From Trypanosoma brucei (lineage: Eukaryota): DNA of 64,000 bases. A model generated the notes under the pieces. That model did no database searches and had not been told where the DNA came from. It worked only from the letters and a program-made list of their open reading frames with translations. This document shows positions 3,001-52,801 of this stretch, one piece after another; position 1 is the first letter of the stretch, and each line of letters begins with the position of its first letter. The DNA lies in the NCBI GenBank assembly GCA_000002445.1, contig CH464491.1:3840001-3904000 (forward strand). Reading direction: 5' to 3'. The position numbers were made by a program, and so were the translations under genes.

Positions 3001-6000
3001 CTTTCGATGTCCACGGGACGCGTTCGAAAAAATCCCGAATCACTTTGACAACCAAGTCGGCCTTTTCATTATCGATTCCTCCCTCATGTCCTGTCCTGCT
3101 CTTCCGTGGAGTGCGACGCAGTTCAAACAACAGGTGCTCAACACCCTCTAATACGTTGAATATTTGTTGAACGTGCTCTTCTAAAGAGGTTACGTTAGCC
3201 ATGTGTGTATTCACTTCCATCATGAGATTCTGCGAGTGCAGCGACGCTGCCTTGCAACTTTCCTGCACACCAGTTCTTGACGCCGCTTCAAGCAACAAAT
3301 TTACCTCGGTAACTATGGCGTCTGTATCTTCTTCATCCCCTTTGCTAATTATGTGAATAATCATGTGAGGTAACAAGTAACTTATAAGGGTCTGTTCACC
3401 CTTTGCCATGTTTCGTAGTGCCTTCATCATTTGTCCGAAAACTCCCCTACATCGCAGCACTAGATCGCAAAACCACACGTTGAGCCACGTGTTAATCTCC
3501 ATGCCAGACACATATACGGGGCTTCGGAGTTCCGTTCGCTGCAGTACACAAGCAGTGTACTTAGTCGTGGTATATCCTTCAATCATCTGCCGACAGGAGG
3601 GCTCCAGTTCCATCCACCATGAATAGCGTTGCAACTCCTCTATATGCAGTGCCTCATCATTCTGCAACGTAGGGTAACATTTGGACTCTCGCTCAGCGTT
3701 AGCGAATACGCGCAGCAACTCTTGCACCGCAAACGCGGCACGATCGTGCATTGTTGGGTCGGCAGTGTTAGCAAGAGCGCGCGGGCAATGAACGCTCAGC
3801 AACTCCACGGCGAATTCCCTCCAATGAAGAACTTCAGTCGGATGCGATAGTAATAACTTTCGTGTGGAGGATGACACGCGACCACTTAAGTGAAGAGACA
3901 CCGGCGACAAATTGTTCGAGCCTGTGTGCTGACAGCCGTGACGTAGCATCGATCCGTTTGAGTGTCCAACCGCACCAATCATGCCCACGCAAGCGAGGAC
4001 GTACTGAACATACTCATCGTGCAGCTCGAAGACGCAGTTCAACAAGGTTGGTATAAGTTGAGGATGCTGTCTTGCCGCACAAGTGAGTTCCATCCGACCC
4101 GCAACGTCTGTCGTTGAAAGATACTGGTAAAGGGCACGGACAAATACCTTTTTGCACTTTGTTGAACTACTCTGTACGACTGAAAACAAACCAGTTACAA
4201 TAACGTCTACACTTCCTTTTGCACTTAAGGGAGCGTTTCCCGATTCGTACGTTTGGCATTTGGCGGATGATCCATTGCTTCTTAGCCGACGAATAAGAAT
4301 ATTTGAGCGGCTCATAATTTTAAAGTACAACTCCCAAAAGGGTTCAGACTTTGAACGCTCATACACCACTCGCATCGCCTCATCCAAATGAAGAAGGGCC
4401 TCAATATCGCCTGGCTCCGTTAACGCCTCCATACTTAGTAAGTCAACGACAATAGAGGGTGAGTGTTCACTAAGGTACCTAGGTGTGCATCGACTGAGCA
4501 ACTCACGCCACACGGAACAGACAACACGCACCAACTGGGGTCGGAAGCTGCAGAAGTCTAGTATCGCCGGCAGCTTCGACGCTATCACTGTTGTGTGACT
4601 GCCAAGGCACCGGATAAGGGAGATCAGGCCATACAGCCAACGTTGCACTGTGTGGACCGACACATCGACAGTTTCTGCGGTTACGCGGTTGTTTATGCCA
4701 ACGCACTGTGATACTGTGTCAAGTACGGAGAATACATGCTTGGTTAGTGACCCTCCGTCCACTGTGTCATTGGTAACTTGCATTTCCAACACCAGCTTTA
4801 TGTCAGTAACAGAGGGTCCACATTCTCCAATACACAGAGCCATTTCGACAGCAAGGTCAAACTCTGACAGCCCCCCAACATCATCTTCACGCTTCTCTGC
4901 TTCAATATTGTTTCCTACCGCTACTCGTTTTTGTTCGGTGAGGCTGCCCCTATCCCTTGACAAAACTTCCCGGCCGCCATGAAGGTACATCAGACTTGCT
5001 ATTATAGACCCTAGTGAGCGGTTAACCATGTCGGGTAGATCACTTAACCGCTTTGACAAAAACTGGAGGACCTTCTTGACGTTGTCCAGTCTCTCCGAAG
5101 CACCATTCGCCGCATCACAAAGTAAAATATATGCCATTATCATGGGGAACTTAGACATGAGCGAAAGTGGCTCTCCCAATAGTTCATTGATGCGCAGCAA
5201 CTGCTCTGCACCATCGTCGGCAAGTAAAGAACGCGGAAGAATGTCGTCAAGGCCCCGCATGACAACTTCCCGGACGTTTTTACCCAGAAGGTAACACATA
5301 GCCCTGAAGAAAACGGTGTGAATGATATCGGGATCACATGAAAACAGATAGTCCATAGACCACGAAAAGCGAGACATCACGCCATGAGCCACTTCGAGAG
5401 CCGTCGCCTTTGTAGCATACATGTCCCCATCAAGTTCACAAATGGCTCTGCACACGTTGATAACATCACGGCACACTTTAGTATTGCAGTGATCTCGAAG
5501 TGATGAAATGGTGGTTAAGGAAAGGGAGGACGGTGAGAAATCACGTAGCGTGCCGCTGCGCGGCCCCTGCTGAACAAAACCTTCCCACTCCTCCGTGAAA
5601 GCCGCCCGAAGCGTTTCCAGTTGCCTTAACAGTAGTGAAGGCCCAGTACGCTCATCTGCATTTGAATGTTTAGAGATGGTATCCTTTAAAACAGCGGCCA
5701 CATCAACATTGCCGCTGCGCTCAAGAAGAACACGTAAAGATAACGCCGCGTAGCCAAGACGTATTACCTCGTTCCTGTGGCCGAATGCATGTGCCAGCAC
5801 AAAGTCTGTCGAGGAAGACTTACGTGCACTCAAAAGAACGTTACATAAACACATCAAAGATATGAATGCATCCTGAACGGCTCCGTTATTTGTTGCGCAT
5901 TTATCGGGTACGAGTTGCTGAACCGCGCAAGCTAGATCGTACACTACCGTATCTGTTCTGCCTGTAAGTTCCATTACTGCGGCAACCGGCTGCTTTAACA

Positions 6001-7171
6001 CGAATGGATTTACCTCGTGCTCATTAAGCAACTCACTGCACTGTGCTTTTGGTTTTTCTCCATCATACGGTTTTACTTCAACGACATCGTCATTGGTAGA
6101 AGACGAGGAAACCACTTCCACGCCCGTCGTTGCTGTTTCATCCGATGAAGGCTCAACCTCACAATAATCCGCCTGAGTTGCCCGCATCCTCTCAAAAATA
6201 GCAAAAAGTTCGGTCGTGATACCTAACAACTGATTGAGAAAATGCAGCAACGCGTCATTACCGTACGTGGCACCAGACTTGGCCAAACTTACCGCAAAAG
6301 ACGTAGACCAACCCAGTGCATCAAGCAACTTTTGTGATGCAATGACAGTAGCACTGACTCTGGCGGTATCAAGTGGCCCATCTAACGGGGAAGGAGTAAC
6401 GTCGTTTCCGCTCTGCTGGTAGTTGCGAGTCACATGTTCTCGCCACCCACGAAGTACGCCACTGATTCGCCACATCGCAACGTCTTGCTCACCAGCACGC
6501 ACATTGATCACCTCTACGATGAGGCGAGCGATATTGTTGGTGTAGCTAAAGTCCGTTATGGGAAGTCTACGCACAAGTTCAGCGTACAGTAGTGAATACC
6601 GAAGCGGTGAATCACCGATACGAACTGTAACTTTCCCGGAGGTGAGATCCCGCAGCGAATCCAACACTACCGACTGCATTGTTTCTTTTTCACACCCGAA
6701 ACGGAGAATTATTATAGCAGCGTCCAATATACTACTGTCATACTCTGTTACCAGCTGTTTCCACACACAACGGAAAGTTGCTGCCTCTTCGCACAGTATT
6801 GCAGAAGCATTTGCTTTAGCTAAGAGGTAATCGTTGTTCCCCATAACCGCGCGACGGCGTTGTAATATTTTACGCAGCAATGACGATACAGCATCACGTG
6901 GGAAGAAACACAAAAGTTGGTGTACCACACTTGCCTCCACTGACATATCGTGGAAATAGATGGATTCGGGCGTCACCCGCCTGGTGACCAACGCATCCAA
7001 CACATTTTCCCCAATCCTGTAGAAGGTTTCCTCAAAACGCGGCAACAAATCTTGTTTGCATGAGAGAGCCCTTTTGAGCAACGCCAACAGCAACAAAGCT
7101 GCCTCGCGCTTTTCCGCGTCCACCTGTCCAGTTGAACAGCAAGTAATCGCAGAAACTGTGTCATCGCACAT
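1..7171 (-). CDS. ATR: ATR-like phosphatidylinositol 3-kinase-related kinase (PIKK), 3'-truncated by window edge; N-terminal HEAT/FAT region and C-terminal kinase domain
   Basis: My own minus-strand translation gives an uninterrupted frame of about 2390 codons, from the ATG at 7171 (revcomp of cat 7169-7171; in-frame stop upstream at 7340-7342) to the window start. The ORF track does not list it because it lacks a stop within the window. The C-terminal end carries the catalytic motifs GLGDRHGEN...DFACMFDKG and FRLTQNVVDGMGVLGVDGPFRACC...LLHDPLVEWM, closely resembling the human ATR kinase/FATC-proximal region. The ORF is not listed in the track because it runs off the window. Confidence 0.8.
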   Translation of the reverse strand, partial: MCDDTVSAITCCSTGQVDAEKREAALLLLALLKRALSCKQDLLPRFEETFYRIGENVLDALVTRRVTPESIYFHDMSVEASVVHQLLCFFPRDAVSSLLRKILQRRRAVMGNNDYLLAKANASAILCEEAATFRCVWKQLVTEYDSSILDAAIIILRFGCEKETMQSVVLDSLRDLTSGKVTVRIGDSPLRYSLLYAELVRRLPITDFSYTNNIARLIVEVINVRAGEQDVAMWRISGVLRGWREHVTRNYQQSGNDVTPSPLDGPLDTARVSATVIASQKLLDALGWSTSFAVSLAKSGATYGNDALLHFLNQLLGITTELFAIFERMRATQADYCEVEPSSDETATTGVEVVSSSSTNDDVVEVKPYDGEKPKAQCSELLNEHEVNPFVLKQPVAAVMELTGRTDTVVYDLACAVQQLVPDKCATNNGAVQDAFISLMCLCNVLLSARKSSSTDFVLAHAFGHRNEVIRLGYAALSLRVLLERSGNVDVAAVLKDTISKHSNADERTGPSLLLRQLETLRAAFTEEWEGFVQQGPRSGTLRDFSPSSLSLTTISSLRDHCNTKVCRDVINVCRAICELDGDMYATKATALEVAHGVMSRFSWSMDYLFSCDPDIIHTVFFRAMCYLLGKNVREVVMRGLDDILPRSLLADDGAEQLLRINELLGEPLSLMSKFPMIMAYILLCDAANGASERLDNVKKVLQFLSKRLSDLPDMVNRSLGSIIASLMYLHGGREVLSRDRGSLTEQKRVAVGNNIEAEKREDDVGGLSEFDLAVEMALCIGECGPSVTDIKLVLEMQVTNDTVDGGSLTKHVFSVLDTVSQCVGINNRVTAETVDVSVHTVQRWLYGLISLIRCLGSHTTVIASKLPAILDFCSFRPQLVRVVCSVWRELLSRCTPRYLSEHSPSIVVDLLSMEALTEPGDIEALLHLDEAMRVVYERSKSEPFWELYFKIMSRSNILIRRLRSNGSSAKCQTYESGNAPLSAKGSVDVIVTGLFSVVQSSSTKCKKVFVRALYQYLSTTDVAGRMELTCAARQHPQLIPTLLNCVFELHDEYVQYVLACVGMIGAVGHSNGSMLRHGCQHTGSNNLSPVSLHLSGRVSSSTRKLLLSHPTEVLHWREFAVELLSVHCPRALANTADPTMHDRAAFAVQELLRVFANAERESKCYPTLQNDEALHIEELQRYSWWMELEPSCRQMIEGYTTTKYTACVLQRTELRSPVYVSGMEINTWLNVWFCDLVLRCRGVFGQMMKALRNMAKGEQTLISYLLPHMIIHIISKGDEEDTDAIVTEVNLLLEAASRTGVQESCKAASLHSQNLMMEVNTHMANVTSLEEHVQQIFNVLEGVEHLLFELRRTPRKSRTGHEGGIDNEKADLVVKVIRDFFERVPWTSKVEAAIGIGSSMRALRCLEGQRYLPKVQDVVGKGISLQRIFAALNDRDSSRSLHRMQDHNPEDAAFSHENNGEWVQALQACELVLQQRPQSINHQFTALRCMQQLGQLHLMSRYSQALLKDSPRPSTLQSATWCRQTQLAALQNYANEAAWRLGEWDSVQARQDLPVSLALPMVALNKMLKRRGTLHDVFAACLFQRMKIAPIIRAACRESYAQVYPHVVFLHALTDIESAAVAVATSMAQVSPDPSDPVVSFRATGLRDTKKMQELGPTLQRRASLTETTLDTQELLLSLHRSIFRAFSMEEEVSKTWMSHVKLLRNEGFLEPALSAVKQASLNNKFTSPSYWTTPAKLLYEMNMSKQAIEFAEDAASDESIPPEIRAKLRVLLTRWKQDISYQTPQEVVDSYELALVMHPSEKAHHHLALFYETVYHSVHSSLLQSSSDAAKSTRETFERKEVEAVETYVLLAIKHFGMALQLGCKTVLISLPRMLNLWLNCSSSLASSAAEAYPDSNIVAPSLQKMADMIERFLLVEETKLSPQLLITALPQLLSRIGHESKHVVNIITKTVVNLMKTFPQQCLWQVLPIDRSKQASRGEVARRGILEPYSRLSANEKKLVDNMIIVFKSLIDLCNCSVGELTNGNRSSEPSLAGRPFIQRMEKIFTTTKVLLPTTANLSPNVLHIPSKSGVFAGSATFQEFIPKVNIMSSLQKPKRITVVSSEGEPVSFLCKSRDEPRKDMRMMEIATLMNTFFLSDPEARRKRFALRRYAVSALNDDCAIIEWVNNLVPFRKGVEECYAIDGTGVCISNVRAWKAKVDSGIMKKLDMFERFIFPRAPPVFHIWFYSNFRSHQDWYHARTIYTQATALWSIAGHIVGLGDRHGENLMIDVRTGELMHVDFACMFDKGETLEVPERVRFRLTQNVVDGMGVLGVDGPFRACCQAALRCQMKNKTAVMSVVETLLHDPLVEWMREQSKRQRSFDPKQLIGRVSRRLDGFLDLYNPSKEK

Positions 7172-10039: not shown

Positions 10040-11683
10040 TTACTTTTCGATAGTGTCCTTTTTTTCAGTACTGCTCTTGGTATCCCCGATTTCGTTAGTA
10101 CACTCACATCCAGTAATCTTCTTGAACTCATCGATTTGTCGCGTTTCGTCGGGCATGCCAAGAACAGCATTAAGCGAGAAACTACTTTCCAGTCGTCGCT
10201 GTTGTGACCTCGGAAGGAGGCGGTTCACCGTGGGGTTATGTGATACAGGTAGGAAGAGTGAGCTTGCGCCAACTCCTAACATTTTCACCTTCAGGTTTCG
10301 TATAGCGGTATGTGTGTCATAATGGCGTACAGAGAGCCAAGAACGGAGCTCTGGATTCTCCTTCTTCAGGTAAGTCATTTCACGTAACTTATTGATGATG
10401 GCGACAATACTAAATGGTGCATCCTTTCCAAGCCAATGTTCCTGTATTGCTTCGACAGGTGTGTAGTGTGGATAAATCAATTCCTCAATGCCCATCCATC
10501 CCTTCACGGCGTGACTAACACCAACAGTATCGTGCATCCGCACCTTTGCTGTGCGCATCAGCTGGGAAGGCCGATAGAAATCTTTCATTGGTCTTTCCAG
10601 CAGACGATTTATGCATATTAGAATTATGTAGCTAAAGGCATGAGCCGAAAGAGCAATGACATAGGTTCCAGACGGATCTTCGTAGTCGAGAGCGGTGTAA
10701 TCACGATCCATAAGTGCCGGATGGAATCCCCAAGTGCTCCTATCCTCCACTGTTGCACTTTGCTCGTACTCGTCCCTTTCAGATTTACGAGCGTATTTGT
10801 TGTACTTTTCTGGTGGTCGGAAGGCGACTGTAACGTCGGAAGTGTAACGTGATAGTTTGCGAATGGAAATATCTCGTGTAACTCCCATGCCATCGTCGAA
10901 TCGGATGGTTCGATGAACGTCAGCACGACCCAGGCACGCACCAATGGCGGCAAGTAAGTCGGTTAATCCTTCCGAATGCGATACGTCGTTACGAGCCGTC
11001 CAGACCACATCCCGAGTTCCAGTTTTTTTGTCTGTGAAGTAAAAAGATATGGTGAACACCTCTTCGGGCCTGTGCTTGTCCATATCGATGATACAATCCA
11101 TGCATTCAATCTCCTCTCCAAGTTGTCGCCATGTCAAATGTTTTGGACTTTTCCTGAACTTGTGCACAAACATAAGTTTGTGTTTCCACTGCTCCTCTTC
11201 ATCATACGGCACCAGGGAACTATCTGACTGGGAAATAGCCTCCACGACTTCACTTTCCACTTCGTCAATACGCCTGAAGTCAACCGTAGCCTTCGTAGCG
11301 TCCACAACTTCCTCCACCTTCCAAAGACCGGTGGGTCGGAGGGGACCGTGGTCTGGTACAGTTGATTCGCCATCGGCTGCAACAGTAGAAACGTCTTGTG
11401 AACGACTTCCTATACTCTCGCGGTGTCTGGTAGGGAGTGTGTTGGGGACGGGTGCCTCTTTGACGCAGTTTCCCCTGCCACTGTGGAGCACTATCGGCGT
11501 GACCTGCGCCGCGCTGCGCCAAGTGCCTGAATCGGTTTCATCAGGACTCCCACAGGGGCTCACACTACCGCCTGTGTTTCCCTTCACACCAGCGTCGCCG
11601 GAATTCGTTAGCTTCCGGCATTGATGCAGAAGTGGAGAAATGCATACAGGGATGTAGCGCGTCAGAGATGGCTTGAAATACAT
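10040..11683 (-). CDS. conserved hypothetical protein (547 aa), no domain recognised
   Basis: Long ATG-initiated minus-strand ORF in register with the flanking polycistron. The N-terminal third is S/P/D-rich low complexity and the C-terminal 350 aa look globular. No family assigned. Confidence 0.55.
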   Translation of the reverse strand: MYFKPSLTRYIPVCISPLLHQCRKLTNSGDAGVKGNTGGSVSPCGSPDETDSGTWRSAAQVTPIVLHSGRGNCVKEAPVPNTLPTRHRESIGSRSQDVSTVAADGESTVPDHGPLRPTGLWKVEEVVDATKATVDFRRIDEVESEVVEAISQSDSSLVPYDEEEQWKHKLMFVHKFRKSPKHLTWRQLGEEIECMDCIIDMDKHRPEEVFTISFYFTDKKTGTRDVVWTARNDVSHSEGLTDLLAAIGACLGRADVHRTIRFDDGMGVTRDISIRKLSRYTSDVTVAFRPPEKYNKYARKSERDEYEQSATVEDRSTWGFHPALMDRDYTALDYEDPSGTYVIALSAHAFSYIILICINRLLERPMKDFYRPSQLMRTAKVRMHDTVGVSHAVKGWMGIEELIYPHYTPVEAIQEHWLGKDAPFSIVAIINKLREMTYLKKENPELRSWLSVRHYDTHTAIRNLKVKMLGVGASSLFLPVSHNPTVNRLLPRSQQRRLESSFSLNAVLGMPDETRQIDEFKKITGCECTNEIGDTKSSTEKKDTIEK

Positions 11684-18427: not shown

Positions 18428-19930
18428 TCAGCTAATAACCTCAACAGAAGAACATGATGACGTCCCCCCGTCTTCGACGACAATAATTGGGTCATTATCG
18501 CTCTCAATCGGATCGCTTTGACTTACAGATAATACGGCGCCCTCAGGCTGTGAACAGAGAGGTGTGGTTAATTGCCTGATATCTGGTGGGGACGCTAATG
18601 GATTGAGCCTGGAGAATAACTTCCTTTCACAGAACCTTAACCTCCTTAAACAAATGCCGCATCCTTGACTGCTATCACAGCATGCCGGTTCACCTGGAGT
18701 ATATACGCGGCACGTTACTCGATAATCACTAAAATCAACTGGTTTTAATAACGCCAGAGCCTCCCCTCCTCCGGCCGCTGCCCCATTGGGAGCACCACCG
18801 CACCACCGACTTGCAAGCGAGTTTCTACAGCGGCTGATGCTACCGGTGCTATCTGCAGTGGCACAACACCACATCATCGCCTCTTCACCGTATTCAACAC
18901 CTTCCGACTTAATGAGTCCATGGTTATTGTCGAAAAGAAATCGTGTCACTGGGCTCGATAGCATCCGCAGGATCTCCTCTTGCTCACGGCTACGCCGGGG
19001 GTCCATGTAAGGGTTCACAAACTTTGCAAAAAAGGGGAAACGTCGATTGTCGCAAATTGGTTTGGAGTTAGATATATCATACGGAAAAATCAGTGGCTCC
19101 ACGTTAATCCTTGAATAGTCGAACTCGCCAAACTTAAAGTCTTTTGTAAGTGACTTTGGTGGACCATCGCGGATCCACTCCACTACTTGGAGAAGTTTCG
19201 GGTGTGCCCATCTCCAAAACTCGTCACTGCGGTAAACTCGCCATGCAACAACTTGGCAAACTGGTTTATCCAGATAGACAAAGAAGTCGCATACATCCAC
19301 ATCGGCAATCGCCATCTGACCTTGCATTTGACAAAGGTACTGTTGAGGTATTCCAAAGGGGTGACATAAGCGTTTGGTGCTGTCGTATAATGCGTAATAG
19401 GGGGATTTGATTTCCAACAATCTTGCCAAGCGTTTCGATGTGGAAGCCGTGGGTGAATCGGGAGACGGTGTGGTGGCTAAAGAATCATCCCTTACACTCT
19501 TTGACCTGAACGGAATTCGGATAGATATTGGATTCTCTTGATGTTTCCCATTCTTTACACCCATCAACTTGGTTTCATTTCCCTTTCGCGATGGCGACAT
19601 TAACTGCGAAGATACCGGTGGCGCGTCCTCAAAGACACGTCCATCAGGAGAGCAACCAAGAAGCCTTCCTTCCAAAAGATAGAAGCCACCGTCACTAACA
19701 GCTGTAGAGGTTAATAATTCATACAGCGCACGCGACTTTGGCTCAGTGTTTATACCGTGATCAGTAATTGCGTTGCCTGTAAATTCCAACTCCGTGCCAA
19801 CGATATTTCGGACATAATCCACAAAGTGAACAATGTGTCCGCTAAGCCCGAGAGCCATGCCAAATTGCGATGCGGTGAGCCCAAAAGGCACCTCTTTTTT
19901 CCATTCTAGTTTCTTCCTGGGTTGGGCCAT
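18428..19930 (-). CDS. YqaJ/lambda-exonuclease-like PD-(D/E)XK nuclease domain protein with C-terminal Cys-rich region (500 aa)
   Basis: Motifs appear in canonical order: LTASQFGMALGLSG (motif I), GCSPDGRVF (catalytic D), LLEIKSP (E-x-K) and YLCQMQGQM (Q-rich motif). A low-complexity insertion of about 85 aa lies between the D and ExK motifs. The C-terminus has a CC...C...C...CC...C-x-C-x2-C cluster. The track ORF begins at a GTG at 19969. The first ATG is 19930 (MAQPRKK). Confidence 0.7.
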   Translation of the reverse strand: MAQPRKKLEWKKEVPFGLTASQFGMALGLSGHIVHFVDYVRNIVGTELEFTGNAITDHGINTEPKSRALYELLTSTAVSDGGFYLLEGRLLGCSPDGRVFEDAPPVSSQLMSPSRKGNETKLMGVKNGKHQENPISIRIPFRSKSVRDDSLATTPSPDSPTASTSKRLARLLEIKSPYYALYDSTKRLCHPFGIPQQYLCQMQGQMAIADVDVCDFFVYLDKPVCQVVAWRVYRSDEFWRWAHPKLLQVVEWIRDGPPKSLTKDFKFGEFDYSRINVEPLIFPYDISNSKPICDNRRFPFFAKFVNPYMDPRRSREQEEILRMLSSPVTRFLFDNNHGLIKSEGVEYGEEAMMWCCATADSTGSISRCRNSLASRWCGGAPNGAAAGGGEALALLKPVDFSDYRVTCRVYTPGEPACCDSSQGCGICLRRLRFCERKLFSRLNPLASPPDIRQLTTPLCSQPEGAVLSVSQSDPIESDNDPIIVVEDGGTSSCSSVEVIS

Positions 19931-20211
19931 TTGGTGTTCAGCTAACGCCGCCACTGGCACGTGTATCACAAAAAAGAAAAGAAAAGAAGATGCTGTTCAT
20001 TCAACAAACAACACCTTTGGCACCGAGCCTTAGGATAATACTGACCAATCACCATCAGAAAGGAAACTAATCACAACTGTAAGACGTGTTTACTAATAAA
20101 AGAGATTAATGGCCAAACGATAATCAGTAGACTGTTTTCCTCTTCAACTACTTCCGAACGCCTCCACGACTAATCGTTGTAAAACCGTAATTAAAGACTA
20201 GACACGCCACA

Positions 20212-20237
<26 letters not shown>
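20212..20237. repeat. (AT)13 microsatellite
   Basis: Direct read. Confidence 0.95.
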
Positions 20238-20242
<5 letters not shown>

Positions 20243-21208
20243 TACGAATAAGTAGTATAAATATATATTGTGTGGAATATGTGTAACATTTTCCCCTAAA
20301 CGGTTGCACGGTATCGTTGGCGCGTCATCAAAATGAAATATTCCGCTCTGGCAGTACACGGCATTGCCTTTTTTTGTTATGTTTCCACAGATACAAACAT
20401 GAGCATGTGTCGTCATTAATTCCTCCTCAACTAAACTATGGAGTAACACATTGTTTTGAACATAATAACAGTAGGAGGAGGAAGTAGGAGGAGAACCAAA
20501 ACTACGGATGCAAATATATATATATATAATAAAAGATGTATGAGAAAATAAACACTAAAAGAATAATTTTTTTTTAAAAAAAAGAAGAAAAGGAAGAGGA
20601 AAAAAGACATAATGAGAGGATGGGCTCCGAATTGGAGTGGCATATTGAGATAGATGATGAAAAACATGAGGACAACAGCCTCTACAAGGATTGGAAAAGG
20701 AAACAAAAAAGAAAAAAAGAAACAACAACAACAACAGCGACGCCAAAAGGGGGAAAAAAAAATGATATAGTAACGGAGAGAAGGGAATGGAAAGTGAACC
20801 ATTCCATAAGGTAGTGCAAAGTCGTTGTGAAAAAATACAAAAGGTTAAGAGGGAGGGGAGAAGAAAAAAAAGAGAGAGAAAACAACAACAACTACCGACC
20901 TTCACCCGTGCCGTCTGAAGTACAAGATTAAACCAATCAAAAAGAAAAAAAGAGGGATTGTCGGGTCTCCACAAAGTGGAAAAGACAAACTTTTATTCTC
21001 CTGCGTATATTTATTTTTTTTTCGGAATATTTTCAGTATTCGTCTTTTTTTTTTTCGTTTACCCCCAAAAAATTTTTTTCCTTTTATTCTTTTCTTTACC
21101 TGCTTCATTCCTATCCTCCTAATTTGATCAAAAGATGTCCCTTTAGATCACCTTTTTTTTGTTTTCTTTTGCATATGTATGTAAATAAATATATTTAAAT
21201 AAATATAA

Positions 21209-21230
21209 ATATATATATATATATATATAT
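21209..21230. repeat. (AT)11 microsatellite embedded in AT-rich AAATA-repeat context
   Basis: Direct read. Confidence 0.9.
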
Positions 21231-23224
21231 CATTTGTCTTTCATTTCCATTACTTCTTTTTTCTTTTTTTATAAAAAAAAGGGGGTTGCGTCACTGCTCC
21301 ATTTCTTCACGTTCTTGCGGTCCTCCTCTTGAGGTGATACGAAATAAAAAAGAGTTCATATCTGAAGGAGGAATTGCTGCGTGGACAATCAAATGAAGAA
21401 AATACGGGGAATCCACACGATACGCAGAAATGACAAAAAATGAATTAAAAAAAAAAAAGAAAACACTCCAACACTACAAAAAGTGAAGAAAGTTAAAAAA
21501 ATGATAAAAAAAACAACAAAAACTCCCACATGTTCACATCAGGCCGCAGAAATTCGAGTCGAGTTCAGTTAACTGTAGTCGAATATGTGTCTGTATGTCT
21601 GTAAATATGTCTGTAAGTATGCTGTTCTTTTTTTTTCCTCTTTGGGATTCCGTTGTGCCTTATTCGGATATCATGAATCCAACACATTCCGTCACTACTC
21701 CACTCCTTTAGAATCAAGTGGCGGTCAAAATAAATTATTTATATATTATAATAATTATTATTATTAAAGAAAAAAAGGAGGAGTTGAGGAATGACACGAG
21801 AGTAAAGAAACGGAAAACATGAAATAATGACGCCGTTTTTCCCCCCCCCCCCATCAGATGTGTGACTGATGCACTCCCGTATTGACCTCAAACAGAAGAA
21901 GTGGAGGAAAAGAGAAGAGGGGAGAAAAGAAAAAAAGATCAAAAATCAAAAAACAAAAGGAAAAGGAAATGAAAATAGAAATGGGAAAAGAAGAAGAAAG
22001 GAAAGGGAATAGTGTAAAGGGTGCTTCACGCGCACTCTTTTGCGATCCTTTCCTTTCCTTTACTTTTTCTTTTCCCATTTCTTTTTTCTTCTATGCGACA
22101 AACAGCAATGAATTTATAAATTATAGGCTGCTCTGTTATAAAATGGTGGGAATGAAGGGGGAGTGGGGGAAAAAAAAAGAACCGATAGAAAGTGGAGGGT
22201 AAAAGGGTTTTAAAAAAAAAAATGTGGCCATAATAAATACAGAGGGAAGAGAAGGGTAAAAATGTAATAAATAAGTAAAATATTTTTATTAAAAAAAAGC
22301 CAAAGCAAAACAAACCATAAAGAAACTAACAGAAAAGAAAAGAACAAAAGAATGACATATACCGAAATAAGTCTAAAGGAAAATGAAATCAAAATAGAAA
22401 AAAAAACAAAAAAATTTTTTTTGAAAAAAAAATTACTGGCCACAATTCAAAATTTTTTTTTCTTTTTTGTTTACCCCCCCCCACTTCTTTGGCACCTTCA
22501 TGACTCTATCGAAACCTTGTGAGCAGAAATTCTCACATTTTTTGTTTTATTTTCCTTCTCTAAACGTGCGGAAGATGTGAGTGAAAGGAGTAACGAAGAG
22601 GGTGGACGGAAGTTTCTTATTATTGTTATTACAACTTTCCTCTCCTATTTTTAAGGTATTTTTTTTTTAATAATCTCATTTTCTTTAAAAATAAAAAAAA
22701 ATCGATTACCACCGCATTTGCTTTCATCATGTTTCTGTCTTTGTTTCTTTTACTTTTTTATTTGCGTATGAGAGTATGCATGTATTATTTTCTCCTCTAT
22801 CATATTTTTCTTCTTTCTTTCTTTGCTTTAGTTTTGGTTCTATGGTAATTCCGTTTTCGCTCGACTCACTTTAAGTCCCTGTTTCCCTTACCCTCCGGCA
22901 ACTTGGAGGGGAACGAAGCAAGAAACATAAAACCAATTATTTGATATTTATTTGTTCCGTCTCCATACGCACCCCCCTCTGCTCCACATTCTAACCGCTA
23001 TCGTTGTCTATTTATTTATTTTTGTTTTTTTTGTTTTTCATTAATCATCATTCACTCTTTTATCCATTCAATGTTGTTTTCTTGGAGGGAGGAAAGGTAG
23101 AAAGAAGGAAAGAAGGAGGGAAATTTTTACTTGTTTTTTTTTCCTCTTTTTTGTCAAGTAAACTCCAACGCCACCAGTCAGCAGCGTGAGAATGTGAGTA
23201 AAACACTGTTGAATTGTTGCGACC

Positions 23225-49683: not shown

Positions 49684-50568
49684 CTACAGGTTCACAATAC
49701 CGTTTAACTTATGGGCGTTGCGGCAGTGGGTTTCTTCACAACTTTTCATATATGCCTCAAACTGGTGACGAGCTTCAGCGGACAGTGACTTCTTTTTCAT
49801 CTCCCTTTCTCCGTTGTTGAGCTTTAAAAAGTATCCTGTGTAAAGCTCCACAAAATCGTATGGAAAGCCGAGCTCTTCCTCATCGGTTTGTCCATCCCAC
49901 AAATCAGCCGAGGGAGCGGCTTGGAGAGTATTTTCTGGTACACCAAGCTCACGCGCGACCTTAAAGACTTCACTTTTGTGCAGGTCTGATATGAGTTGCA
50001 CATCCACAACACCATCACCCGCTTTGCAAAAGTAACCAAGGTAGCCATCCTCGTCCATGTTGCCTGTGCCCATTACAATGGTCGGTGTTCCACTCTGGCT
50101 ACATAGTTGAGCTACATAATACCCGACAGGGGCACGCATGTAGCTGCGCAACTGTCCCCTCGCAAAGTCCTTGCCGTCAATGCCAACAGCGGCTTCAACA
50201 CTCAGCGACAACTGCCTATGAATATCGGTTTGGTCCACTACAACCTCCTCCGCACCGGCAGCACGAATGTTCTCACGACCACGTTCAAGTGCCCACGCGC
50301 TACTGCATATCGGTTGGCAGATGCCAACATTTCTCACGATCGGACTACCTTCCATGCGCTGGGCTCGCGAGCACAGCGACAACACAACGGCAGAATCCAC
50401 ACCACCAGAAACATTTGTTACACAACCTCGTAGCTTATTGTTCCGCATGTATTCGTTCAGTTTGGTGCATTTTTCTTCAATCCATGCAATAGGGTTGAAT
50501 GCGCGATGCCTTCGGTATTCCTCCAACCACTCACGTAACTCAGCATGAAGAATGGGCTCCTTCGGCAT
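49684..50568 (-). CDS. NH3-dependent NAD+ synthetase (NadE-type, single domain), 294 aa
   Basis: PP-loop SGGVDSAVV is present, with overall NadE architecture and length. There is no N-terminal nitrilase/glutaminase domain. ATG verified at 50568. Confidence 0.85.
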   Translation of the reverse strand: MPKEPILHAELREWLEEYRRHRAFNPIAWIEEKCTKLNEYMRNNKLRGCVTNVSGGVDSAVVLSLCSRAQRMEGSPIVRNVGICQPICSSAWALERGRENIRAAGAEEVVVDQTDIHRQLSLSVEAAVGIDGKDFARGQLRSYMRAPVGYYVAQLCSQSGTPTIVMGTGNMDEDGYLGYFCKAGDGVVDVQLISDLHKSEVFKVARELGVPENTLQAAPSADLWDGQTDEEELGFPYDFVELYTGYFLKLNNGEREMKKKSLSAEARHQFEAYMKSCEETHCRNAHKLNGIVNL

Positions 50569-51685
50569 TGCGTGGCGATATGATACTTCACACCTCTCTT
50601 CGTTTAACAGTTATTTGTTGGTTTTGCTTGTGCTACTGAATCTCCGATGGAGATGCTATATGCTGTTGCACAGAGTTAACTGCGAATTACTCACTTGATA
50701 TAATAATTATCTTTAAAACGCTCTAGTGAGACCAAAATCGGAATAAATGGTTCGAAAAAGAGGGAAACATGTTACCACGAGCAAATGAAATGATGACAAA
50801 ACAGTCCTGAGGTAGTGGAGAACAGGGATTAGTACTGAGAGCAGGAAGAAGGAACAAAGTAACAATAAACAGGGGGAAAAGAAGAAAAATCGCGTGATAA
50901 GAACCAAACACAAGGCCCCATGTAATACATCTACTATATGAACTCAGTGCCGGGTACCCAAGACGAGAACACCACCAATGAACGTTCACGAATATATTTA
51001 CCCATGTGTGTATTTGTGTGTGTGCCCAGTTGTAAACGTAACGCTTCTCACTTCTTCCTTTCTACCGCAGTATCACCTTCTTAACCTCTTCTCCGCTCGC
51101 ACGTATACAAGCGAACCTGCCCAACTCTTGTCAGTGTATAAATACATTGATAGTGGTTTACATTTTCTACCCTCAGCAACAAATAAACATAACAGCCAGA
51201 GTAATAATCAATGAAGACCAGCGAAGGGGGAAGTAAAGTGGAGCAACAGAAACACGAAAGGGGAAATGAGTGCCCCCTGCAGTCCACTTAACAACAATGT
51301 TGACTTCCTTTCTTCGCTGCACGCCTACATACATCACACACACAGGCAAACAACTTTCCCTCTACTATTTGCCCAACACAATTATTGATCTCTACACCCT
51401 CCCTTTGGGAATTGCAAACAGAAAAAAATCGCCTCAGCGGGACTAATGGCCAACGACAAACGTCGTGTTAACGGCATGCCAGTAGCGGTAAACAAAATAA
51501 AAGGCGTCTGTTTCACGTGGCCACCCGCCGACTGGCGTAAGACGGGGGGCCGCGGTTAGTGCACACTGTTTGCTGTTGTCTCCCACACGCATGATATTAC
51601 TCGAGCTGTGTGAAAAAAAAAAGAAGACATCGTCCCTCCGCGAGGGAAATTTCTTTCACGAGGGGATGTAACCCGACAACCATGG

Positions 51686-52801
51686 CTACTCCTGAGCCTC
51701 CGCATTTTCTTCAGCAGGAGCATCACCCGCCGCCTCCTCTGGAGCATCTTGTGCAACCTCCTCCTGTGGTTCCTCAACGGGCTGTTCGGTAGCTTCCTCA
51801 GCAGGTTGCTCAGCCGGTTCCTCAACTGGTTGCGAAACTTCCTCAGCAGGTTGCTCCACCGGGTACGATGTTTCCTCCGCGAGTTCCTCAGTTTGCTGTG
51901 GTTCCTCTGCAGGCACCTCAGCCGGTTGTGAAGCTTCTTCCAGAGGTTCCTCAACGGGCTGTTCGGTAGCTTCCTCCACGGGTTGCTCAGCCGGCTCCTC
52001 AACTGGTTGCGAAACCTCCTCAGCAGGTTGCTCAGCCGGCTCCTCAGCTGGTTGCGAAACCTCCTCAGCAGGTTGCTCCACCGGGTACGATGTTTCCTCC
52101 GCGAGTTCCTCAGTTTGCTGTGGTTCCTCTGCAGGCACCTCAGCCGGTTGTGAAGCTTCCTCCGCAGGTTGCTCGGTTTCCTCCTCAGGTTTATCAGCTG
52201 GTTCTGGGGCCTGCTCCGCGGGTTGCTCAACTGGGTATGGATCCTCCTCTTTCTTGGGGCTCTTGAGGGCCTCTTGAATTGGTTTAGTAGAGTAGATTGA
52301 CGGCGTTATATCACATGTTGCACCCACTGGAGGAGCAGCGCTTCGAGAACCACTGACGCCAGTATAACCGATAGCCTTCACTTCGTCCGCACCAGTGCCC
52401 TTGGCTCCTTCTGTCCCTCTCTTCGTTCGGAAGCTGCTTATCAGACCTTGTTTGTAACTTGCCGCCTCTGACATGTCCCGCGTGCGCTGATCCCGCTTGT
52501 ACTCCTCCATAAACCTCTCTTGCCATTGAATTCCCTCCATGACAAGGTCCCGACGCTCAGTGTTGGATCTACGGCGCTCCTCAATGTACGCACGGAGCAC
52601 CTCCTCCTTCACCACTTCTTCCGACTCCGTTTCCTTCAGGTCGGACATGTTCACGAGCTCTGCGTGTCGCACCCACGTATCATCATTGATACAGCTTAAG
52701 TAGTCGCGGATAACCACATCATCGGGAACTAACGATTTGTGTGTCTTGTCCTCATCCACATAGAGCTGAGCAAGAGCAGTAGATGTGGGGTCAGCAGACA
52801 T
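51686..52801 (-). CDS. acidic tandem-repeat protein (371 aa): globular N-terminal ~190 aa plus P/A/E/Q-rich repeats
   Basis: ATG verified at 52801. The C-terminal half is encoded by about 177-bp imperfect tandem repeats with 45-bp sub-repeats (QPAEEVSQPVEEPAE). Confidence 0.6.
   Translation of the reverse strand: MSADPTSTALAQLYVDEDKTHKSLVPDDVVIRDYLSCINDDTWVRHAELVNMSDLKETESEEVVKEEVLRAYIEERRRSNTERRDLVMEGIQWQERFMEEYKRDQRTRDMSEAASYKQGLISSFRTKRGTEGAKGTGADEVKAIGYTGVSGSRSAAPPVGATCDITPSIYSTKPIQEALKSPKKEEDPYPVEQPAEQAPEPADKPEEETEQPAEEASQPAEVPAEEPQQTEELAEETSYPVEQPAEEVSQPAEEPAEQPAEEVSQPVEEPAEQPVEEATEQPVEEPLEEASQPAEVPAEEPQQTEELAEETSYPVEQPAEEVSQPVEEPAEQPAEEATEQPVEEPQEEVAQDAPEEAAGDAPAEENAEAQE
51700..52250. 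repeat. coding tandem repeat array, unit ~177 bp (one copy expanded to 222 bp by a 45-bp internal duplication)
   Basis: Near-identical segments start at 51768 and 51945 (ggttcctcaacgggctgttcggtagcttcctc...). A near-identical 97-nt block recurs at 51841 and 52063. Confidence 0.8.

What the first reader, a model, noticed from the sequence alone, without database searches (positions are those of the whole stretch)
49684..50568. Compact bacterial-type NH3-dependent NAD+ synthetase in a eukaryote
This single-domain NadE is 294 aa, has the PP-loop SGGVDS and has no fused nitrilase-type glutaminase domain. Canonical eukaryotic NAD synthetases (yeast Qns1, human NADSYN1) are about 700-aa two-domain glutamine-dependent enzymes. 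A short ammonia-dependent form therefore suggests a lineage-specific horizontal acquisition from bacteria. That would make the enzyme a parasite-versus-host difference worth noting for NAD-salvage targeting.
Basis: partly seen in the sequence, partly recalled or inferred. Interest (0 to 1): 0.5.

Follow-up and report, generated by a model that had tools for sequence, protein, structure and literature searches.

The report
Trypanosome single-domain NAD synthetase gene
This is the already-annotated NAD+ synthase gene of Trypanosoma brucei, a short one-domain enzyme unlike the two-domain human one, and its nearest relatives outside its own protist group are in giant viruses, not ordinary bacteria.

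Summary
Window 49684-50568 (minus strand) is an intact 294-aa ORF with the PP-loop SGGVDS at residues 54-59. It gives one full-length NAD_synthase match (PF02540, 1.8e-36). There is no nitrilase domain, and an in-frame stop lies 15 codons upstream. The protein is 99% identical to the annotated 'NAD+ synthase' of T. brucei equiperdum, so the gene is already known.

The protein lies far from two-domain NADSYN1/Qns1 (human 6ofb, E 6e-3) and has the single-domain NadE fold. But it is not nested among ordinary bacterial NadE, to which it is 25-33% identical. It belongs to a separate subfamily with bootstrap 100. That subfamily holds kinetoplastids and diplonemids (61-78%), giant-virus contigs (48-53%), one other protist, and a bacterial sister clade (38-46%). 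The bacterial members are mostly fused or adjacent to a 2OG-oxygenase, and many also carry an NMNAT-like domain. Any transfer therefore predates kinetoplastid parasitism, and its donor is unresolved.

The most likely function is the last step of Preiss-Handler NAD salvage, amidating NaAD with free ammonia. This is inferred, not assayed. Two residues invariant in the canonical NadE sampled here are replaced, so substrate and nitrogen-donor preference need testing.

The parts
49684..50568 (-). Complete CDS of T. brucei NAD+ synthase, 294 aa plus the TAG stop, a single NadE-type synthetase domain
   Evidence: ORF list. PF02540 at 1.8e-36 over residues 30-276. TIGR00552 above its cutoff. 99% identity to annotated T. 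brucei equiperdum NAD+ synthase. AF2 model pLDDT 89.3, with single-domain NadE structures as best PDB matches.
50392..50409 (-). PP-loop SGGVDS (residues 54-59), the ATP pyrophosphatase signature, equivalent to B. subtilis S46-GGQDS51
   Evidence: Translation. S54, G55, G56, D58 and S59 are invariant in 37 euglenozoan-type homologues, and S, G, G, D are 100% conserved in every group compared (S59 equivalent 95% in canonical NadE).
50002..50070 (-). Catalytic core GTGNMDEDGYLGYFCKAGDGVVD (residues 167-189). It holds the equivalents of B. subtilis T157, E162, K170, D173 and D177.
   Evidence: Translation. Alignment to the B. subtilis 1ee1 sequence and group conservation. Within this segment the canonical T169 is replaced by C181.
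50134..50154 (-). Helix segment QLRSYMR (residues 139-145). The N133 and R137 that are invariant in the canonical NadE sampled are replaced by Q139 and Y143, while R139 is kept as R145.
   Evidence: Column statistics: Q is 100% in euglenozoan, giant-virus and bacterial clade-C members, against N 100% in canonical NadE. Y is 100/100/80% against R 100% in canonical NadE.
49900..49914 (-). PSADL (residues 219-223), the start of the mobile P2-loop region, equivalent to B. subtilis P207-TADL
49708..49713 (-). C-terminal H286-K287, which I equate with the NadE His-Lys pair (B. subtilis H257-K258)
   Evidence: H and K are invariant in the subfamily and 72% and 100% conserved in canonical NadE. The B. 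subtilis residue numbers are from my memory; the solved-chain alignment ends at residue 254. Translation.
50611..50613 (-). In-frame TAA stop 15 codons upstream of the start codon. It excludes an N-terminal extension.
50735..50892 (-). Pyrimidine-rich tract upstream of the CDS (up to 87.5% C+T in 40-nt windows), followed by AG dinucleotides. It is probably the polypyrimidine and trans-splice acceptor region of this mRNA. This is inferred, not shown.
   Evidence: Sequence and pyrimidine scan. The role is inferred from general knowledge of trypanosome mRNA processing.

Best explanation
The ORF is the T. brucei NAD+ synthase gene. It is a stand-alone NadE-type PP-loop ATP pyrophosphatase. It most likely adenylates the nicotinate carboxyl of NaAD and then amidates it with free ammonia to give NAD+. 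That completes the nicotinamidase, NAPRT, NMNAT, NADS (Preiss-Handler) salvage route on which trypanosomatids depend. It belongs to a divergent NadE subfamily shared by kinetoplastids, diplonemids, at least one other protist and giant viruses. The sister group is a bacterial clade in which the same domain is usually fused or adjacent to a 2OG-Fe(II) oxygenase and often to an NMNAT-like domain. The two-domain enzyme proposed for the eukaryote ancestor (PMC3376133) was presumably replaced by this form before kinetoplastids and diplonemids diverged. Shown here: the gene, its architecture, fold, conserved catalytic residues and phylogenetic placement. Inferred: substrate, nitrogen donor, direction of transfer, and absence of a second NADS.
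For: Family membership and fold: PF02540 and TIGR00552 score above their cutoffs. The AF2 model has pLDDT 89.3, and the 48 best PDB chains are all single-domain NadE, with TM-score up to 0.89 on the target. Catalytic machinery is conserved: the PP-loop, R145, T168, E173, K182, D185, D189, K198, PSADL and H286-K287 align to B. subtilis R139, T157, E162, K170, D173, D177, K186, P207-L211 and H257-K258. Strong purifying selection is evident, with 60-77% identity across Euglenozoa and 75 invariant positions. Pathway need: trypanosomatids lack de novo NAD synthesis and convert nicotinic acid to NAD (PMC3833962). L. braziliensis NMNAT makes NaAD, and L. infantum depends on nicotinamidase (PMC7160426). 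The genomic survey in PMC3833962 lists one NAD+ synthase accession per trypanosomatid, and the named proteins from that study are these 292-293-aa orthologues. Fusion with an NMNAT-like domain in the bacterial sister clade supports an NAD-pathway role for the subfamily. Phylogeny: the subfamily has bootstrap 100 and the bacterial clade 96, and identity falls in steps of 61-78, 48-53, 38-46, 25-33 and 21%.
Against: No member of this subfamily has been characterised biochemically in any paper I could find. Two positions invariant in the canonical NadE sampled here (N133, R137) are replaced by Q and Y, and T169 by C. I recall these positions as lying in the NaAD-binding region, so the substrate-binding mode may differ. 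The specific NCBIfam equivalogs all score below their cutoffs, for example PRK13980 at 130 against 255. The absence of a two-domain NADS or of a separate glutaminase partner elsewhere in the T. brucei genome could not be tested with the collections available. The eukaryote-plus-giant-virus grouping has only 49% NJ bootstrap, and the tree is a distance tree.
Confidence: 0.8

Rival explanations
1. The enzyme is an NMN synthetase like Francisella tularensis NadE. It would amidate NaMN to NMN, and NMNAT would then make NAD directly.
For: The best structural match and second-best sequence match in the PDB is the F. tularensis NMN synthetase 3fiu (TM-score 0.89 on the target). Residues invariant in the canonical NadE sampled here are changed. 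L. braziliensis NMNAT accepts both NMN and NaMN (PMC7160426), so either order of steps would work.
Against: The lead of 3fiu over ordinary NaAD-using NadE is marginal (E 1.7e-15 against 5.5e-15, 26% identity). F. tularensis keeps the canonical N and R that the trypanosome protein has lost (alignment), so the substitutions are not the Francisella signature. The L. braziliensis NMNAT paper states that earlier work reported NaAD synthesis in L. infantum.
Confidence: 0.1
2. The enzyme is glutamine-dependent in vivo because it pairs with a separately encoded nitrilase-like glutaminase subunit. This corresponds to the split arrangements described in PMC3376133 (physical clustering, or remote occurrence, of a separate glutaminase gene).
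For: Split arrangements of synthetase and glutaminase components are described in PMC3376133. Databases often label the orthologues 'glutamine-hydrolysing', EC 6.3.5.1.
Against: No CN_hydrolase gene lies in the 64-kb window. The EC 6.3.5.1 labels are automatic transfers. None of the 150 nearest cluster representatives has an N-terminal extension the size of a glutaminase domain: the NadE domain is N-terminal in 139 of them, and the exceptions tested are tandem NadE domains.
Confidence: 0.08
3. It is a recent, lineage-specific transfer from an ordinary bacterium into T. brucei or the trypanosomatids.
For: The architecture is single-domain, and the best PDB sequence matches are prokaryotic NadE.
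Against: Orthologues at 60-77% identity occur in all trypanosomatids, in bodonids and in a diplonemid. Canonical bacterial and archaeal NadE are only 25-33% identical and score 60-102 bits, against 155-340 bits for subfamily members. The gene sits in a normal polycistron with typical GC content.
Confidence: 0.03

Closest known systems
Canonical single-domain NH3-dependent NAD+ synthetase NadE (B. subtilis 1nsy/1kqp, E. coli 1wxi, P. horikoshii 2e18)
   Same: The size is similar (about 250-290 aa), the Rossmann-like PP-loop fold is the same (TM-score 0.71-0.83 on the target), and so are the SGGxDS motif and the Mg/ATP and catalytic residues E162, K170, D173, D177, K186 and H257-K258.
   Different: Identity is only 18-27% to the solved NadE structures and 25-33% to the sampled canonical NadE. 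The protein sits in a separate subfamily with bootstrap 100. The canonical N133, R137 and T169 are replaced by Q, Y and C. The NCBIfam equivalogs PRK13980 and PRK00768 score below their cutoffs.
Francisella tularensis NMN synthetase (3fiu)
   Same: It is the best structural hit (E 1.7e-15, TM-score 0.89 on the target) and is also a single-domain protein.
   Different: Identity is 26%. It keeps the canonical N and R residues that this protein lacks. Its substrate preference (NaMN) is not known to apply here.
Eukaryotic two-domain glutamine-dependent NAD+ synthetase (yeast Qns1, human NADSYN1 6ofb)
   Same: It catalyses the same overall pathway step, and its synthetase domain has the same fold (rank 49).
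   Different: This protein has no N-terminal nitrilase-like glutaminase domain and so no ammonia tunnel. The sequence match is E 6e-3, with about 20% identity in the structural alignment. PMC3376133 treats the fused form as the universal eukaryotic form.
Giant-virus (Nucleocytoviricota MAG) NadE-like proteins and bacterial NadE-2OG oxygenase(-NMNAT-like) fusions
   Same: They belong to the same subfamily, share the Q/Y signature, and are 48-53% (virus) and 38-46% (bacteria) identical over the full domain.
   Different: None of these has been characterised. The bacterial forms are mostly multidomain or sit next to a PhyH-like oxygenase, and some viral forms are tandem NadE-NadE. The trypanosome protein is a lone domain in a housekeeping role.

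Membership tests
NAD synthase / NadE (PF02540, TIGR00552) | Profile match above the curated cutoff over the whole domain | tested here: met
   PF02540 scores 126 bits against 21 and covers profile positions 2-234 of 242. TIGR00552 scores 121.5 against 63.65.
NAD synthase / NadE (PF02540, TIGR00552) | PP-loop SGGxDS ATP pyrophosphatase motif | tested here: met
   SGGVDS lies at residues 54-59. S, G, G and D are invariant in all groups compared, and the final S is 95-100% conserved.
NAD synthase / NadE (PF02540, TIGR00552) | Conserved Mg/ATP and catalytic residues (B. subtilis R139, T157, E162, K170, D173, D177, K186, H257-K258) | tested here: met
   These align to R145, T168, E173, K182, D185, D189, K198 and H286-K287. 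The functional roles of the residues, and the H257-K258 numbering, are from my own knowledge of the B. subtilis structures.
NAD synthase / NadE (PF02540, TIGR00552) | NadE three-dimensional fold | tested here: met
   The AF2 model has pLDDT 89.3. The top 48 PDB chains are NadE, with TM-score on the target mostly 0.69-0.89.
NAD synthase / NadE (PF02540, TIGR00552) | Helix residues invariant in the canonical NadE sampled (N133, R137), which I recall as part of the NaAD-binding site | tested here: not met
   They are replaced by Q139 and Y143 throughout the subfamily. The consequence for substrate binding is unknown.
NAD synthase / NadE (PF02540, TIGR00552) | NaAD plus ATP plus NH3 gives NAD+ activity | not testable with these tools
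   This needs an enzyme assay. No published assay of a subfamily member was found.
NCBIfam NadE equivalogs (PRK13980, PRK00768, PRK13981) | Score above the equivalog cutoff | tested here: not met
   Scores are 130 against 255, 78.9 against 250, and 55.6 against 479.
Two-domain glutamine-dependent NADS (Qns1 / NADSYN1, type F) | N-terminal nitrilase-like (CN_hydrolase) glutaminase domain fused to the synthetase | tested here: not met
   The protein has a single Pfam domain. There is a stop 15 codons upstream, no domain in the upstream spacer, and 13-15 stops in each upstream frame.
Two-domain glutamine-dependent NADS (Qns1 / NADSYN1, type F) | Synthetase domain clusters with type F enzymes | tested here: not met
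   Identity to the Acinetobacter type F synthetase domain is 21%. Human 6ofb gives E 6e-3. The subfamily separates with bootstrap 100. No eukaryotic type F sequence could be included in the tree.
Split NADS with a separate glutaminase subunit (clustered or remote arrangements of PMC3376133) | Separate nitrilase-like G-subunit gene, clustered or elsewhere in the genome | tested here: inconclusive
   None was found in the 64-kb window. The rest of the T. brucei genome was not searchable here.

The most novel reading that the evidence does not exclude
Euglenozoa replaced the two-domain NADS proposed for the eukaryote ancestor (PMC3376133) with a member of an uncharacterised NadE subfamily. That subfamily circulates among giant viruses and bacteria (one member lies on a Paenibacillus megaplasmid). 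In bacteria it is fused or adjacent to a 2OG-Fe(II) oxygenase and, in many cases, an NMNAT-like domain. It carries a diagnostic Q/Y replacement of the canonical N133/R137 and may differ from textbook NadE in substrate (NaAD or NaMN) or nitrogen-donor handling. The link to giant viruses would mark a virus-host gene exchange involving a core cofactor enzyme.
Probability: 0.3. Interest if true: 0.55.

Novelty: already known. Interest (0 to 1): 0.3.

Why it matters
The gene itself is ordinary. It is annotated as NAD+ synthase in all TriTryp genomes and used in pathway maps. Three points still deserve a note.

First, it is a clear exception to the published generalisation that all eukaryotes use the fused glutamine-dependent NADS.

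Second, the parasite enzyme differs completely in architecture from human NADSYN1 and shares about 20% identity with it in the structural alignment. It sits on the only NAD route inferred for trypanosomatids from genome surveys, so selective inhibition is conceivable. Essentiality in T. brucei is unproven.

Third, its closest relatives outside Euglenozoa are giant-virus genes, and its sister group is a clade of unstudied bacterial fusion proteins. I found no description of this in the literature searched. It could be followed up as a case of virus-host exchange of a core metabolic enzyme.

Tried and rejected
An exact-sequence look-up of the window protein found nothing. The nearest database entry differs by about 1%, so the strain could not be named.

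The GTDB genome scan uses exact 8-mer patterns. It returned only canonical NadE at 25-39% identity and missed the bacterial subfamily members later found by the exhaustive HMMER search. It cannot be read as absence from bacteria.

The phage collection holds only canonical-like NadE at 35% identity or less. The idea that cultured phages carry this subfamily was dropped.

PADLOC gave no defence-system hit beyond a generic 2OG model. A defence or counter-defence role for the bacterial fusions remains pure speculation.

Seven literature searches found no biochemical study of a kinetoplastid NADS and no mention of its single-domain nature, horizontal-transfer origin or giant-virus relatives. PMC3833962 flags NAPRT, but not NADS, as a transfer candidate.

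I could not obtain a eukaryotic two-domain NADS sequence for the tree. A bacterial type F enzyme (Acinetobacter, L053) and PDB statistics served as proxies.

I could not test whether T. brucei has a second NADS or a nitrilase-family partner elsewhere in its genome.

The identity of several EukProt entries (tig00020563, GILI01, GGOE01, gene13269) is unknown. They nest among kinetoplastids and diplonemids in the NJ tree and were not used to claim a wider eukaryotic distribution.

Full report
**1. The observation**

Window 49684..50568 on the minus strand is an uninterrupted 294-codon ORF from ATG to TAG. Its product contains SGGVDS at residues 54-59, which is window 50392-50409. Pfam finds one family only, NAD_synthase PF02540 (E 1.8e-36, 126 bits against a cutoff of 21), spanning residues 30-276 and almost the whole profile. 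NCBIfam's TIGR00552 nadE domain model passes its cutoff at 121.5 against 63.65. The narrower equivalog models (PRK13980, PRK00768, PRK13981) all fall below theirs.

An in-frame TAA lies 15 codons upstream of the ATG, at 50611-50613. Every minus-strand frame between the ATG and the next gene upstream (50569-51685) has 13-15 stops. The short ORFs in that spacer match no Pfam family even at E = 1. None of 20 other large ORFs in the window has a nitrilase/CN_hydrolase domain.

**2. Whose gene it is**

All 26 ORFs of 200 aa or more lie on the minus strand. They encode typical eukaryotic proteins: an MIP-T3/IFT54-like protein, FtsH, PSP1, CLU, phosphomannose isomerase, PIF1 helicase and DNA polymerase alpha subunit B. 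This is the signature of a trypanosomatid polycistronic unit.

The protein is 99% identical to 'NAD+ synthase [Trypanosoma brucei equiperdum]' and 77% identical to the T. congolense orthologue. It is 60-74% identical to orthologues in other Trypanosoma species, Leishmania, Leptomonas, Phytomonas, Strigomonas, Angomonas and Neobodo. The same range holds for transcriptome entries with the prefixes Tbor and Rhum, which I read as Trypanoplasma borreli and the diplonemid Rhynchopus humris.

The gene is thus already annotated. It appears as EC 6.3.5.1 in a genomic survey of trypanosomatid cofactor synthesis, with one accession per species (PMC3833962). It appears as NADSYN in a T. brucei / T. congolense pathway map (PMC8384185).

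**3. Fold and active site**

An AlphaFold2 model built on 37 homologues is confident (mean pLDDT 89.3, pTM 0.89). Foldseek against the PDB puts 48 chains of single-domain NadE enzymes first. These include the F. tularensis NMN synthetase 3fiu, P. horikoshii 2e18, H. pylori 1xng and B. subtilis 1nsy, with TM-scores on the target of 0.79-0.89. Human two-domain NADSYN1 (6ofb) comes only at rank 49. Sequence search of the PDB gives the same order: 2e18 at 3.8e-23 and 6ofb at 6e-3.

I aligned the protein to the B. subtilis NadE sequence recovered from the PDB. The residues I know as the ATP/Mg and catalytic set are conserved:

- S46-GGQDS51 aligns to residues 54-59.
- R139, T157, E162, K170, D173, D177 and K186 align to R145, T168, E173, K182, D185, D189 and K198.
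- P207-TADL aligns to PSADL at residues 219-223.
- The conserved H286-K287 I equate with H257-K258. The solved-chain alignment ends at residue 254, so that numbering is from memory.

Three positions that are 100% conserved in the canonical NadE sampled here are replaced. N133 becomes Q139, R137 becomes Y143 and T169 becomes C181. The Q and Y replacements are shared by the whole subfamily described below.

**4. Relatives**

*Canonical NadE.* Canonical bacterial and archaeal NadE genes recovered from GTDB genomes are only 25-39% identical. They score 60-102 bits against the trypanosome protein.

*Exhaustive search.* An HMMER search of 1.84 billion cluster representatives found 264 representatives at E < 1e-30, scoring 155-340 bits. 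Of the best 150, 57 are single-domain proteins of 400 aa or less with the NadE domain at the N-terminus. A further 51 are 401-700 aa and 28 are over 1000 aa, again with the NadE-like domain at the N-terminus. This is the opposite order to Qns1/NADSYN1. Pfam identifies the extra parts as a 2OG-Fe(II) oxygenase / PhyH-like domain and, in the long forms, a cytidylyltransferase-like (NMNAT-type) domain.

*Bacterial members.* Named members come from Deltaproteobacteria MAGs (MBI4818877.1, MBI5516794.1) and Streptomyces (WP_331727829.1). One long fusion lies on a contig with ordinary bacterial genes (L038). A Paenibacillus thiaminolyticus 359-kb plasmid carries an unfused copy that is 43% identical over 97% of the query. 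A phytanoyl-CoA-dioxygenase gene lies two genes downstream, and a macro-domain gene is nearby.

*Giant-virus members.* The closest non-euglenozoan relatives are not bacterial.

- Four IMG/VR contigs encode full-length proteins 51-52% identical to the query. Three of them are named giant-virus MAGs.
- P0122, P0126 and P0123 lie on contigs carrying an intein-containing ribonucleotide reductase, an intein-containing RNA polymerase Rpb1, and Rpb6 with an aminoacyl-tRNA synthetase and a PARG domain.
- A tandem NadE-NadE protein, P0218, lies on a contig carrying ATG8, kinesin and RNA ligase.

I read these four contigs as Nucleocytoviricota from their gene content, which is an inference.

*Another protist.* One member (P0284; its cluster representative P0171 is 46% identical to the query) lies on a contig of a eukaryotic genome assembly, next to ankyrin, EF-hand and PX-VPS9 genes.

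**5. Phylogeny**

I built a neighbour-joining tree with 100 bootstraps from 81 sequences and 269 columns.

| Grouping | Bootstrap |
|---|---|
| Whole subfamily, separated from canonical NadE, from asnB-linked rhizobial NadE paralogues and from an Acinetobacter two-domain enzyme | 100 |
| Bacterial clade of fusions, including the Paenibacillus copy | 96 |
| Eukaryote plus giant-virus clade | 49 |

| Compared with the T. brucei protein | Identity |
|---|---|
| Euglenozoa | 61-78% |
| Giant-virus members | 48-53% |
| Bacterial clade | 38-46% |
| Canonical NadE | 25-33% |
| Type F (two-domain) | 21% |

A larger NJ tree of 169 sequences gave the same three-way structure. These are distance trees. 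Branching order inside the subfamily, and hence the direction of transfer, is unresolved.

**6. Function**

Trypanosomatids lack both de novo routes to NAD and convert nicotinic acid to NAD (PMC3833962). L. braziliensis NMNAT synthesises NaAD, and L. infantum depends on nicotinamidase (PMC7160426). A NaAD-amidating step is therefore required, and this is the only candidate listed per genome.

Taken with the conserved adenylation machinery and the strong conservation across Euglenozoa (75 invariant residues), the best explanation is a stand-alone NAD+ synthetase that uses free ammonia. I put this at 0.8 overall.

Several things are not shown: the activity itself, the preference for NaAD over NaMN, the nitrogen donor, the absence of a separate glutaminase partner elsewhere in the genome, and essentiality. 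The N133Q and R137Y replacements and the top structural hit to an NMN synthetase keep the NaMN alternative alive at about 0.1. However, the Francisella enzyme keeps the canonical N and R.

**7.

The architectural claim and the contrast with the host enzyme are correct. [quoted passage not shown]

The evolutionary claim needs changing. The gene is not a lineage-specific pick-up from an ordinary bacterium. It is an ancient feature of at least kinetoplastids and diplonemids, free-living ones included. It belongs to a distinct NadE subfamily whose other holders are giant viruses, at least one other protist, and bacteria with unusual fusion architectures. A non-vertical origin is likely, but donor and direction are open.

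**8. Novelty and score**

The finding as stated concerns an annotated housekeeping gene of a well-known enzyme family, so it is already known and of modest interest. I found no paper describing three things: the distinct subfamily, its giant-virus members, and the bacterial NadE-2OG oxygenase-NMNAT-like fusions. These are the part worth following up.

Noticed in passing
P0127, P0128, P0129, P0133, P0151, P0164; L038 10001-13606; L051 7968-11279: There is a large bacterial clade of multidomain proteins. One form is an N-terminal NadE-like domain plus a 2OG-Fe(II) oxygenase/PhyH-like domain (about 560-600 aa). The other adds an NMNAT-like cytidylyltransferase domain and an unassigned C-terminal region of about 300 aa (about 1150-1200 aa). 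On a Paenibacillus thiaminolyticus 359-kb plasmid the NadE and PhyH-like genes are separate but nearly adjacent, with a macro-domain gene nearby. I found no described function. It could be an unrecognised NAD-related pathway.
   Followed up: partly
L041, L043, L044, L045-L048, L055: Giant-virus or giant-virus-like contigs encode the closest non-euglenozoan relatives of the trypanosome enzyme (48-53% identity). On some contigs the gene lies next to other nucleotide or ADP-ribose genes: NUDIX in L043 at 11070-11477 and a PARG-like gene in L044 at 5710-6447.
   Followed up: partly
P0138, P0163, P0202, P0218 (L055 8001-9662): Proteins of 553-633 aa carry two NadE-type domains in tandem. At least one lies on a giant-virus-like contig that also carries ATG8, kinesin and RNA ligase genes.
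   Followed up: partly
L052 2408-3412; L054 1198-2214: NadE paralogues of 334-338 aa lie on Sinorhizobium and Azospirillum plasmids, next to asnB, an acyl carrier protein, an acyl-CoA ligase or a GNAT gene. They form a separate branch from housekeeping NadE and are probably amidotransferases of a small biosynthetic cluster.
   Followed up: no
window 51686-52801 (-): The gene immediately upstream encodes a 371-aa acidic protein whose C-terminal half consists of Pro/Glu/Ala-rich repeats (PAEEPxEQP-like). A 45-nt unit is repeated 2.2 times at 98% identity at 51981-52078. It has no Pfam match. A 224-aa ORF in another frame of the same strand (51556-52230) overlaps it and is probably an artefact of the repeat.
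   Followed up: partly
window 18428-19969 (-): A 513-aa ORF has a YqaJ-like viral recombinase/exonuclease domain (PF09588, 1.8e-18). This is an unusual domain for a eukaryotic nuclear gene and another possible gene of viral or bacterial ancestry.
   Followed up: no
window 20001-22000: An AT-rich spacer (GC 0.34 against about 0.47 elsewhere) contains (AT)n and ATAAATATAT-type microsatellites. It lies between two genes of the same polycistron.
   Followed up: partly
window 1-64000: All 26 ORFs of 200 aa or more but one are on the minus strand, and the one exception overlaps a minus-strand ORF. Cumulative GC skew falls steadily across the window. Both fit a single directional transcription unit.
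   Followed up: no
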